DNA from: Malacoraja senta | Lineage: Eukaryota | DNA: 64,000 nucleotides | Assembly (NCBI GenBank): GCA_038087875.1 | Contig: CM075985.1 | Location: 7,936,001 to 8,000,000 of the forward strand | Direction of reading: 5' to 3' | In this document: piece by piece, positions 3,001 to 6,000 of the stretch | Layout of the letters: every line of letters starts with the position of its first letter | Numbering within the stretch: the stretch's first letter is position 1 | Program-made: the position numbers

Positions 3001-6000
3001 GATAAATTGTTGACACAAGGAAGTAGTTTACAAAAAGAGGCATAAAGTGCTTCAGTAACCCAGCGGGTCAGACAGTATTTCTGCAGAACATGGAAAGACG
3101 ACGTGTCGTGTCAGGAACCATCTTCAGCGAAATAGAAGAATTAAATACATTATCAAACACGAACATTGGATACTTGTTTTCATTAACTCTGCAAGTGCAG
3201 AAAGTTTATGGTACAACTATTTGATTGAAAGAAACAGCATTGAAACAGGCCCTTAGCCCACCAACCATCGATCGCCTATTCAAGCCAGATCTATGTTATT
3301 CCACTTCCTCATCAACTCCCTACACGAAGGGTGATTTACAAAGGCTAATTAACCTGATTGTTTGTAGTGGACGCCAGTCCACAGTCTGTCCCCTGTGATG
3401 GAGACAGAGATCAAAAAAGGGGAGATAGGTTTCAGAGATAGACTCTGATACCTCTCTGCCTCTGATCTCTTACACAAGGATAGACTGCCCTTGATCGTCA
3501 TCACCACCCAACCAGCCTCTGCATCCAACACATCATCCTCCAACATTTCCATGACCTCCAACATGATCCCACCACCGGTCACATCCACCCAGTCTTTCTT
3601 TAGGCACCTTTATTCACTGTAGAATCTCCTGTATTAATCAGCTCTTCATTTAAACTTGGTTTAAAAGGAATAAACTGAAGCCATGGTTTGGAAAAGCAGA
3701 AGTTCTCCATGGGAACTTGCTTCTCTTGATCTTTGCTGTAAAACTGATCAAAGGTTGAAGGCTTATTTGCAACTCCTGACTTCCATGCTTGTGGATTGCA
3801 ATGCAGAATTCAGAAATTTACGGAATTTACAAACACGACTTATATCTAATCAACGAAGTAAACAGAATTAAGAGAAATACATTGAGAATGATCACATAGG
3901 AAGATTTGGATGCAAAGGTTTGATCCAAGGTTTATTCAAGAATGTTTATTTGTGTTGAACTGTTTCATTATTTGCAGCTGCCCTCTCCATTAGTCTTTCA
4001 CTGAAGAACTGGGCTGTACACAGTCTCCTCCTCCTCCTCCTCCTTTCTAGCTCCCCGTGTCGTTGCCCATTGCAGTTTGGCATAGCAGATCTCCTCCTCA
4101 TTGGTTTCATTCTACAAAAAAGGCAAAACACAGTGCATTAACTTTTGTCTTTGTCTGAGGTTTAGTGTGCCAACCACTCAGCATGTTCTCAGTAATCTCA
4201 GTCTCAGTCATCAACAAAGTGTTGGGAAGTGCCAGTGAAGCTGCACTGACTCTCTAATAAATGGTTCACTGATGTCCAGTTCAGGTATTGCCAGATTTTC
4301 ACAGCTCCTGTCCTCATCACCTTAATAAATAAATTCAAACTCACGAGCCTGCTTCTGGTCTGGCTACGTGGAAATCACAGAGGGGACAGAGCAACATTTG
4401 CTTTGAATAAGAAACCGTAGAGTACTAAATATACATTCTATAGTTAAAAAATAATTAAATACTAGACTAAGTGGGACCCGTTGGGGGGGGCTGGTCCTGT
4501 CCTCATCTCCTTTCAGAGGTGAGAATATTGACTTTGCAGATGGCCAGGTACGATATTCTGTATCCTTGGCCAGTCAATAGTCAATGGGCATCAAGGAGAA
4601 ATCACTCCAATATGCAATTATACTTCAAAGAAAGCAAAATAGTACTTTACTGCCGATCACTTATACCATCTATCAGATATCTCATCAGGGGTTCCTCCAG
4701 GCAATGTGCTATGCCCAACAATCTTTCGGCACCAAGCGAAAATAACCATTTGCACTGACCATATCCAACAAGTGTGACGGTAACCACCTACCCTTGACAT
4801 TTAATGGCATTACCATTGATGAATCATCTAGTTTTGTTTCATTTATTATTGTTACACTATTTACCAAAAATTCAATAGGATCACCCATTTAATTACTGTT
4901 TCCTCACCATGTGATGCATAGTAGCATCACTAGCCTACCAGTAGCAGGCACAGGTTATTGATTGGGGACGATCAGCCATGATCACAATGAATGGCGGTGC
5001 TGGCTCGAAGGGCCAAATGGCCTCCTCCTGCACCGATTTTCTATGTTTCTATTTCTAATGAGTTGTTTGCTTGATTTTGTAATTGCAATTAAAACGTTGC
5101 AGGAGTATCCATGGTCCACATTAGGCTATTAAACATTGCCATACATACATTCAAACTCACGAGCCTGCTTCTCCTGGTCTGGTTATGTGGAAATCCCAGA
5201 GAATTCTGAGAGGGGACAGACAAACCAACATTTGCTTTGAATAAGTAACCGAAGAGGACTAAATGTACATTATCTTTTTTAAAAAATCAAATATTTACCA
5301 TGTTATTCCATTCAAGGTTCAAAGTTCGATTACTTTGAATTCTTGTTTGCTCTTGCATTCGTTTCCTTTCTATGAGAAATAATAATGAAGTGGAATAGTT
5401 TTAAAGTCTTTGTAGTAAAGTGAACTATAGTATAAGTAAGTAAGTAAGTAAGTTTATTGGCCAAGTATTCACACACAAGGAATTTGCCTTCGTGCTCTGC
5501 CCTCAAGTAACAACATGACATACAGTGACAGTTACGAATGACTCAAAACACTAAACAATAATAATAAAACATTAATGATAAAACACCATTGATCAAGCAT
5601 GTGAATCAACAAAATACCAGATATCTTATGTCATGTTAGGAATATATTATATAGCTTCAAAAGTAGACATATCTAATAATTTACTTCATATTATTATGTC
5701 AATTTAAAAAAGTGGGACAATAGATGCAAACACGGGATTAATGAAGGGAGAATCATGGTGCAGAATCAGGAGAGCACCTAAAAGTTTGCTTTCGGGAAAG
5801 TTGGCTGTGAAGTCACTTACTGCATGCACATTTTATAAGGAAGAGCACAAGAGGGAAAAGGCAAGCTGTTCCTCCACTTATGGAAAGTAAAATGGAAATC
5901 CAGGTACTCCATTTATGATCTGTGGAAAATTGGAATTGTTAAATCACGTTATGCATGGTCCATTTAAACAACTCCCCAGAACAATTTCAAGTTCAATATG

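What the first reader, a model, noticed from the sequence alone, without database searches (positions are those of the whole stretch)
4330..4435. Duplicated cytoplasmic exon turned into a candidate 19-nt signalling off-switch micro-exon
Seen: 4330-4435 is a copy of 5150-5270. It has lost the original CAG acceptor by deletion, gained a TAG acceptor (4366-4364) behind a pyrimidine-rich tract, and kept the strong GTGAGT donor. Including 4363-4345 after exon 6 reads PDQKQAQ then TGA at the start of the last exon, removing both ITIM and ITSM. Established: a stop in the last exon normally escapes NMD. Inference: alternative splicing could produce a stable membrane-bound decoy isoform without the tyrosine motifs.
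Basis: partly seen in the sequence, partly recalled or inferred. Interest (0 to 1): 0.65.

Follow-up and report, generated by a model that had tools for sequence, protein, structure and literature searches.

The report
Decayed intronic copy of small exon
A short stretch inside the last intron of an immune-receptor gene is a real but decayed copy of the neighbouring small exon; it could in principle be spliced in to cut off the inhibitory tail, but nothing here shows that it is used, so it is most likely an ordinary dead duplicate.

Summary
The sequence observation is correct. On the minus strand, 4461-4325 is a diverged copy of 5293-5141 (blastn E 2.8e-29, the only two copies in the window). 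That segment covers most of intron 5, the predicted 45-nt exon 6 and the first 20 nt of intron 6 of a seven-exon Ig-superfamily gene: leader, V-set, C1-set, transmembrane, then a tail with ITIM ICYAKL and ITSM TVYSPV. The copy lacks 4, 11 and 3 nt. The 11-nt loss removes the CAG acceptor. One A-to-G difference makes a TAG at 4366-4364, and the GTGAGT donor is intact. Inclusion of 4363-4345 would read PDQKQA, Q, then TGA at 4109-4107 in the terminal exon.

Use of this exon is not shown and could not be tested: no transcripts or related eukaryotic genomes were available. The exon part of the copy is no better conserved than the intron part. Its acceptor is much weaker than exon 6's. Another decoy in the same intron scores higher. 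The copy sits between 18-nt direct repeats, like an inserted fragment.

Verdict: most likely a dead pseudo-exon. A functional off-switch micro-exon has about 6% probability. Interest is low.

The parts
5141..5293 (-). Copy A: intron 5 from about +6, predicted exon 6, and the first 20 nt of intron 6
   Evidence: blastn and MAFFT alignment to copy B; homology ends at 5141 (7 matches to 14 mismatches beyond it)
5161..5205 (-). Predicted exon 6, 45 nt, phase 0-0, NSLGFPHNQTRRSRL; acceptor CAG, donor CTC|gtgagt
   Evidence: acceptor ranks 5 of 714 AGs in the gene span by a rough PWM; no transcript evidence
4325..4461 (-). Copy B: decayed duplicate of copy A inside intron 6, lacking 4, 11 and 3 nt relative to A
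4345..4363 (-). Candidate 19-nt pseudo-exon or micro-exon (PDQKQA plus C)
   Evidence: usage untested
4364..4366 (-). TAG potential acceptor (TAA in copy A); 12 of 16 pyrimidines at -20..-5, but purines at -4, -6, -12, -13 and -15
   Evidence: rough PWM 2.42, rank 42 of 714 AGs
4339..4344 (-). GTGAGT potential donor, identical to exon 6's donor
4495..4512 (-). Upstream copy of the 18-nt direct repeat (AAGGAGATGAGGACAGGA on the minus strand) flanking the segment that holds copy B
   Evidence: family D6, 17 of 18 identical; the 13-nt core occurs only twice in the window, and 0 of 100 shuffles gave 2 matches
4306..4323 (-). Downstream copy of the 18-nt direct repeat; it begins 2 nt after the A/B homology ends
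3998..4111 (-). Coding part of terminal exon 7: ITIM ICYAKL 4090-4073, ITSM TVYSPV 4024-4007, normal stop 4000-3998; the TGA reached after inclusion of the 19 nt is at 4109-4107
   Evidence: AATAAA signals at 3950 and 3936
5299..5369 (-). Predicted exon 5, 71 nt, phase 1-0, (K)RKRMQEQTRIQSNRTLNLEWNNM
5821..5919 (-). Predicted exon 4, transmembrane: WISILLSISGGTACLFPLVLFLI followed by KCAC
12032..12346 (-). Predicted exon 3, Ig C1-set domain, phase 1-1
   Evidence: Pfam C1-set 1.7e-06; PDB hits to Ig mu, CD276 and SIRP constant domains
14578..14937 (-). Predicted exon 2, Ig V-set domain, phase 1-1
   Evidence: Pfam V-set 4.9e-14; PDB hits include TIM-4, PD-1 and CTLA-4
16305..16353 (-). Predicted leader exon: METSFYIILQLLIPCA, donor CAG|gtatga
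4908..4934 (-). Control decoy: a 27-nt AG..GT interval in the same intron with higher rough splice scores (3.57 and 6.07)

Best explanation
Copy B is a non-functional, decaying partial duplicate of the intron 5 / exon 6 / intron 6 boundary. It was inserted about 650 nt downstream, inside the last intron of an inhibitory-type Ig-superfamily receptor gene.

Its donor, its likely branch site (CTTAT, A at 4408) and part of its pyrimidine tract are there by descent from the parent copy. The TAG differs from the parent's TAA by a single transition. The resulting 19-nt AG..GT interval is a pseudo-exon that is not included in the mRNA at a meaningful level.

Shown here: the duplication, the deletions, the signals and the reading consequences. 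Inferred: that it is not used.
For: - The duplication is real and local. There are only two copies in 64 kb, 816-834 nt apart, in the same orientation.
- B carries three deletions, two of them inside the former exon, so neither its length (19 against 45 nt) nor its reading frame is kept.
- Identity is the same in the exon part (35 matches, 5 mismatches) as in the intron parts (63 to 12 and 18 to 2), so there is no sign of selection on the exon part.
- By a rough PWM the acceptor scores 2.42 against 7.01 for exon 6.
- The signals are not distinctive. 18 AG..GT pairs of 10-200 nt in the 12,193-nt gene span score at least as well on both sites; this count includes the candidate, its 43-nt variant and exon 6. 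One decoy, 4934-4908 in the same intron, scores higher on both.
- B lies between 18-nt direct repeats (17 of 18 identical), and the downstream repeat begins 2 nt after the end of homology. This pattern fits an inserted fragment.
- Base rate: a human survey found 4,027 intronic segments homologous to an exon of the same gene and concluded only that 'at least some' may be expressed (passages of PMC9013439).
- Exons of 30 nt or less are described as a mechanistic challenge for the splicing machinery (abstracts in the listing).
Against: - The candidate's splice signals fall within the range of the gene's six predicted real acceptors: scores 0.69-7.01, ranks 5-70 of 714, candidate rank 42. Its donor equals that of exon 6.
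- A plausible branch site is kept 44 nt upstream of the AG, with no intervening AG after 4401.
- The frameshift ends in the terminal exon, so a transcript that included it would not be expected to be degraded.
- ITIM receptors are known to switch tails with a small frame-shifting exon, as CEACAM1 does.
- The PWM uses consensus frequencies recalled from memory and is only a relative ranking.
- Absence of use was not observed. It is inferred.
Confidence: 0.7

Rival explanations
1. Functional off-switch. The 19-nt segment is a regulated cassette micro-exon. Its inclusion shifts the frame and stops translation at TGA 4109-4107, giving a membrane-bound receptor with about 50 cytoplasmic residues, no ITIM and no ITSM, which acts as a decoy or non-signalling isoform.
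For: The AG and GT are intact, a candidate branch site and a partial pyrimidine tract are kept, and the donor is identical to exon 6's. The stop falls in the terminal exon. The CEACAM1-L/S switch shows that a small exon of a length not divisible by three can toggle an ITIM-bearing tail (passages of PMC2490704).
Against: There is no transcript or conservation evidence. The exon part is no better conserved than the intron part. The acceptor is far weaker than the parent's. Equal or better decoys lie nearby. At 19 nt it is in the size class said to challenge the splicing machinery (listing). From recall, many such exons depend on neural regulators that would not be expected in immune cells.
Confidence: 0.06
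2. Splicing noise. The pseudo-exon is occasionally included at a very low level, because its signals are adequate, but this has no selected function.
For: The signals are within the range of the real sites of this gene. The product would escape NMD, so rare inclusion events would be visible rather than degraded (inference from the position of the stop).
Against: As for the functional reading, nothing shows any use. The small size and the weak acceptor argue for very rare recognition.
Confidence: 0.17
3. A and B are two insertions of one low-copy mobile or repeated element. 'Exon 6' is then either an exonised piece of it or not an exon at all.
For: B is bracketed by an 18-nt direct repeat resembling a target-site duplication. 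The 5' 23 nt of the bracketed segment (4462-4484) match 10722-10700 in inverted orientation (91%, E 0.001). Exon 6 is not needed to keep the frame between exons 5 and 7.
Against: There are only two copies in 64 kb, 0.8 kb apart and in the same orientation, whereas a known repeat fragment in the same intron has three other copies in the window. No direct repeat was found around copy A. Exon 6 has the fifth-best acceptor of 714 AGs.
Confidence: 0.07

Closest known systems
Unannotated intronic duplicates of neighbouring exons (tandem or local exon duplication; Letunic et al. 2002 as cited in, and Ivanov & Pervouchine 2022 = PMC9013439)
   Same: An intronic segment homologous to an exon of the same gene, in the same orientation and close by, with potential splice sites.
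   Different: Functional cases are usually mutually exclusive exons of the same length and frame that encode a homologous peptide. Here the copy is cut to 19 nt, would be read out of the parental frame, and is bracketed by direct repeats rather than being part of a tandem unit. The sequence after B does not repeat the sequence after A.
CEACAM1-L / CEACAM1-S switch by exon 7 (53 nt)
   Same: In an ITIM-bearing Ig-superfamily receptor, a small exon whose length is not a multiple of three decides whether the long ITIM tail or a short tail with a proximal stop is made (passages of PMC2490704).
   Different: In CEACAM1 inclusion gives the long tail and skipping gives the short one; here inclusion would give the short one. 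CEACAM1 isoforms are documented in mRNA and protein; here nothing is. There is no sequence relationship.
Intronic pseudo-exons (decoy AG..GT intervals with good splice-site scores that are not spliced)
   Same: Adequate signals, small size, no conservation signal, and comparable decoys in the same gene.
   Different: This one has a known origin: its signals come by descent from a predicted real exon. That gives it a somewhat higher prior than a random decoy.
PD-1 / CD28 family co-inhibitory receptors (identity of the host gene)
   Same: The V-set domain's nearest named Atlas cluster is 'PD-1 family' (0.96), and PD-1 chains are among its PDB hits (E about 2e-4). The tail has an ITIM with Ala at pY+1, as reported for cartilaginous-fish PD-1 (PMC12151841 section 20), and an ITSM 22 residues later. 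The CDR3 region HCCEVIRLAP resembles the YxCxxxxx[I,A,V,L]P motif described for CD28HL3 (passages of PMC11599192).
   Different: Every described family member has a single V domain. This gene model carries a C1-set exon between the V and transmembrane exons. It was therefore not filed as a member.

Membership tests
Alternative exon born by exon duplication | Significant sequence homology between an intronic segment and a neighbouring exon of the same gene | tested here: met
   E 2.8e-29; 116 matches and 19 mismatches in ungapped columns
Alternative exon born by exon duplication | Both splice sites present | tested here: met
   TAG 4366-4364 (new position, weaker) and GTGAGT 4344-4339
Alternative exon born by exon duplication | Length and reading frame compatible with the parent exon (homologous peptide) | tested here: not met
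   19 nt against 45 nt; read in a different frame from the parent (NQTRRSRL against PDQKQA)
Alternative exon born by exon duplication | Junction reads or cDNA showing inclusion | not testable with these tools
   No transcript data available
Alternative exon born by exon duplication | Conservation of the copy in orthologous introns | not testable with these tools
Frame-shifting tail-switch exon of ITIM receptors (CEACAM1 type) | ITIM-bearing tail encoded downstream of the alternative exon | tested here: met
   ITIM 4090-4073 and ITSM 4024-4007 in exon 7
Frame-shifting tail-switch exon of ITIM receptors (CEACAM1 type) | Exon length not divisible by three, leading to a proximal stop | tested here: met
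   19 nt; TGA 4109-4107
Frame-shifting tail-switch exon of ITIM receptors (CEACAM1 type) | Both isoforms expressed | not testable with these tools
   No transcript data
Regulated micro-exons (30 nt or less) | Size 30 nt or less | tested here: met
   19 nt
Regulated micro-exons (30 nt or less) | High cross-species conservation of the exon and of the upstream intron | not testable with these tools
   No related genomes. Within the paralogous pair there is no excess conservation of the exon part
PD-1 / CD28 family (host gene) | Single extracellular V domain followed by stalk and transmembrane region | tested here: not met
   A C1-set exon at 12346-12032 with matching phase and good splice sites lies between the V and transmembrane exons; the definition comes from passages of PMC11599192
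PD-1 / CD28 family (host gene) | Cytoplasmic ITIM followed by ITSM | tested here: met
   ICYAKL and TVYSPV, tyrosines 22 residues apart
PD-1 / CD28 family (host gene) | Orthology by phylogeny and synteny | not testable with these tools
   No homologue search or annotated genomes. The only neighbouring gene fragment recognised is an ACOT-like exon
UrIg / UrIg2 (elasmobranch V plus C-domain genes) | A V (VJ) domain followed by many C domains (nurse shark UrIg2 has 10 IgSF domains) | tested here: not met
   Only one C1-set exon was found between the V and transmembrane exons; the description comes from passages of PMC12227049

The most novel reading that the evidence does not exclude
In a cartilaginous-fish-like genome, a PD-1/CD28-like inhibitory receptor with an unusual extra C1 domain has recruited a decayed copy of its own cytoplasmic exon as a 19-nt poison-free 'tail-off' micro-exon. 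Regulated inclusion would make a stable, membrane-bound, ITIM/ITSM-less decoy. That would be an independently evolved counterpart of the CEACAM1 long/short switch, and it would be caught at a stage where its origin by intragenic duplication is still visible.
Probability: 0.06. Interest if true: 0.55.

Novelty: new member of a known kind. Interest (0 to 1): 0.15.

Why it matters
If the micro-exon were used, it would show how an inhibitory immune receptor can gain a signalling-dead decoy isoform through a small intragenic duplication followed by decay. It would also give a directly testable example in an early-branching vertebrate lineage.

As things stand, it is one more intronic exon-derived pseudo-exon. 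Its main value is as a caution for gene annotation: an automatic model that included it would truncate the receptor. A secondary value is the pointer to the host gene, whose PD-1-like V domain joined to a C1 domain may deserve its own look.

Tried and rejected
- AlphaFold2 of the V exon alone, without an alignment, gave mean pLDDT 42.6 and pTM 0.33. This is too poor for a fold search, so none was run.
- A search for paralogues of the V and C1 exons in the window by tblastn found none with E below 0.1. No paralogous tail exons were available for comparison.
- A search for further copies of the A/B segment and of the terminal exon in the window found none.
- The Rfam scan of the whole window gave 0 matches at gathering score.
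- UrIg/UrIg2 was considered for the host gene because a UrIg2 chain was among the PDB hits to the C1 exon. It was rejected on domain count.
- A simple tandem duplication of an ~830-nt unit was rejected. The 679 nt between the copies match nothing after copy B; they match only three other copies of a repeat fragment elsewhere in the window.
- Splice-site scoring with a published maximum-entropy model was not possible because the tables were not on the machine. A rough position-weight matrix with consensus frequencies recalled from memory was used instead, and only for ranking.
- The tool for predicting how proteins sit together was not used; no binding claim is made.
- The genome-contig collection was not used because it holds only bacteria and archaea.

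Full report
**Scope and limits**

The window has no N. I do not take it for human.
- Its two Ig exons have only distant matches to solved chains, human ones included (best E 8.9e-07 and 2e-11).
- It is full of reverse-transcriptase and Tc1-type transposase fragments.
- The repeats look to me like those of cartilaginous fish. This is recall, not a test.

The joined protein was not built or searched.

No eukaryotic genome, transcript or homologue search was available. Use of the candidate exon and its conservation in other species therefore stayed unchecked.

**1. The observation**

On the minus strand, 4461-4325 (copy B) is a diverged copy of 5293-5141 (copy A).
- blastn gives 76.8% identity over 155 columns including gaps, E 2.8e-29 against the window, and no third copy.
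- The MAFFT alignment has 116 matches and 19 mismatches in ungapped columns.
- Register shifts of 834, 830, 819 and 816 nt between the ungapped blocks show that B lacks three pieces relative to A:
 - 4 nt in the pyrimidine tract;
 - 11 nt, the CAG acceptor plus the first exon bases, lying between two CTCT repeats in A;
 - 3 nt inside the exon.
- Where A reads TAA, B reads TAG (4366-4364).
- The 12 exon bases before the donor and the first 12 intron bases (GTGAGTTTGAAT) are identical in both copies.

The homology runs a little further than stated. It starts just after the donor of exon 5 and ends 20 nt into intron 6; beyond 5141 there are 7 matches to 14 mismatches.

**2. The host gene**

Reading stop-to-stop frames and splice signals gives a seven-exon model on the minus strand.

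| Exon | Coordinates | Content |
|---|---|---|
| 1 | 16353-16305 | leader |
| 2 | 14937-14578 | V-set, Pfam 4.9e-14 |
| 3 | 12346-12032 | C1-set, Pfam 1.7e-06 |
| 4 | 5919-5821 | transmembrane |
| 5 | 5369-5299 | cytoplasmic, 71 nt |
| 6 | 5205-5161 | cytoplasmic, 45 nt |
| 7 | 4111-3998 (coding part) | terminal, ITIM and ITSM |

- The Ig and transmembrane exons are all in phase 1.
- AATAAA signals lie at 3950 and 3936.
- The terminal exon reads NETNEEEICYAKLQWATTRGARKEEEEEETVYSPVLQ*. It holds an ITIM and an ITSM with the tyrosines 22 residues apart.

Two cautions apply.
- The model rests on sequence signals only.
- Exon 6 is not needed to close the frame, because exon 5 ends and exon 7 begins in phase 0. 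Its best support is its acceptor, which ranks fifth of 714 AGs in the gene span by a rough matrix.

**3. What inclusion would do**

The 19 nt at 4363-4345 translate as PDQKQA with one base left over. With the AA that opens exon 7 this makes Q, followed at once by TGA at 4109-4107.
- The same result holds whether the 19 nt follow exon 6 or exon 5.
- A second possible donor at 4320 would give a 43-nt exon with an in-frame TAA (PDQKQAREFEFIY*).
- In each case both tyrosine motifs are lost.
- In each case the stop lies in, or within a few bases of, the terminal exon. By the established 50-55-nt rule (textbook knowledge, not tested here) nonsense-mediated decay is not expected there.

**4. Is it likely to be used?**

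I scored splice sites with a simple position-weight matrix. Its frequencies are recalled consensus values, so only the ranking is meaningful.

| Measure | Candidate | Comparison |
|---|---|---|
| Acceptor score | 2.42 | 0.69-7.01 for the six predicted real acceptors; 7.01 for exon 6 |
| Acceptor rank among 714 AGs | 42 | 5-70 for the real acceptors |
| Donor score | 2.27 | same as exon 6 |

The signals are adequate but not distinctive.
- In the 12,193-nt span there are 40 acceptors and 27 donors at least as good.
- 18 AG..GT pairs of 10-200 nt are at least as good on both sites. This count includes the candidate, its 43-nt variant and exon 6.
- A 27-nt decoy in the same intron (4934-4908) is better on both sites.

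The exon part of the copy is no better conserved than the intron parts: 35 matches to 5 mismatches, against 63 to 12 and 18 to 2. Two of the three deletions hit the former exon. The parental frame is not kept.

Exons this small are described as a mechanistic challenge to the spliceosome (abstracts of PMC11648925 and PMC8378409 in the listing).

In a human survey, 4,027 intronic segments resembled an exon of their own gene. The authors concluded only that at least some may be expressed (passages of PMC9013439).

In favour of use:
- A likely branch site (CTTAT, A at 4408) lies 44 nt upstream of the AG, with no AG in between after 4401.
- The donor is identical to that of exon 6.
- There is a precedent: CEACAM1 toggles its ITIM tail with a 53-nt exon (passages of PMC2490704).

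**5. Origin**

B is not half of a tandem unit.
- The 679 nt between the copies match nothing after B. They match only three other copies of a repeat fragment elsewhere in the window.
- B sits inside a 171-nt segment (4494-4324) bracketed by an 18-nt direct repeat: 4512-4495 and 4323-4306, 17 of 18 identical.
- The 13-nt core of that repeat occurs only at these two places. None of 100 shuffles gave two matches.
- The downstream repeat starts 2 nt after the homology with A ends.
- The first 33 nt of the segment are not from A. 23 of them match 10722-10700 in inverted orientation (91%, E 0.001).

This looks like an insertion of a copied fragment with duplication of the target site. The mechanism (repair-templated, retroposed or element-mediated) is not resolved.

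**6. Verdict**

| Reading | Probability |
|---|---|
| Dead, exon-derived pseudo-exon | about 0.7 |
| Occasional inclusion as splicing noise | about 0.17 |
| Selected off-switch micro-exon | about 0.06 |
| Both copies belong to a low-copy mobile element | about 0.07 |

The kind of object is known: an unannotated intronic duplicate of a neighbouring exon. Interest is low unless transcripts show otherwise.

**7. Host-gene identity (a side issue)**

- The V exon's nearest named Atlas cluster is 'PD-1 family' (0.96).
- PD-1, TIM-4 and CTLA-4 chains are among its PDB hits.
- The C1 exon is nearest to C1-set clusters, including SHPS1/SIRP.
- The ITIM has Ala at pY+1, as reported for cartilaginous-fish PD-1 (section 20 of PMC12151841).
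- The segment HCCEVIRLAP resembles the CDR3 motif given for CD28HL3, a member with ITIM/ITSM that was not detected in Chondrichthyes (passages of PMC11599192).
- All described CD28-family members have a single V domain. Because this gene model has a C1 exon, it is not filed there.

The supplementary alignments of those two papers, which I could not see, may bear on this.

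Noticed in passing
window 16353-3998, minus strand: The host gene joins a PD-1/CD28-like V domain (Atlas 0.96 to a 'PD-1 family' cluster; CDR3-like HCCEVIRLAPPP) and an ITIM/ITSM tail to a C1-set domain. This architecture is not described for the CD28 family in the passages I read.
   Followed up: partly
window 4306-4323 and 4495-4512: An 18-nt direct repeat (17 of 18 identical) brackets a 171-nt segment containing copy B, like a target-site duplication. The first 23 nt of the segment match 10722-10700 in inverted orientation.
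   Followed up: partly
window 4908-4934, minus strand: A 27-nt AG..GT interval in the same intron has higher rough splice scores than the candidate (3.57 and 6.07). It lies just downstream (in the gene's direction) of a repeat fragment (4944-5059) that recurs at 8233-8326, 27097-27205 and 57379-57485.
   Followed up: no
window 50572-50922, plus strand: An open frame matches acyl-CoA thioesterase 2 and 4 (PDB 3hlk E 1.8e-16, 3k2i E 3.8e-16). It is probably one exon of a neighbouring ACOT/BAAT-type gene. Pfam gave no hit at 0.001.
   Followed up: partly
window 6880-8229 (+), 19293-19805 (+), 37103-37810 (+): A LINE reverse-transcriptase fragment lies inside intron 3 of the receptor gene in antisense (RVT_1 6e-34). 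A second, weaker RT fragment and a Tc1/mariner-type transposase fragment (HTH_Tnp_Tc3_2 1.8e-16) lie elsewhere. Most long open frames in the rest of the window look like decayed mobile elements.
   Followed up: partly
window 4031-4048, minus strand (exon 7): A run of six GAG codons (EEEEEE) lies between the ITIM and the ITSM. In the +1 frame the same repeat gives an arginine run, which produces a misleading 63-aa open frame (3946-4137) in the ORF list.
   Followed up: yes
window 5821 / 4111 (exon 4 to exon 7): Skipping both exons 5 and 6 would join the trailing A of the transmembrane exon to AA TGA, giving K then a stop. The same TGA at 4109-4107 would truncate that product too (read; not joined or searched).
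   Followed up: no
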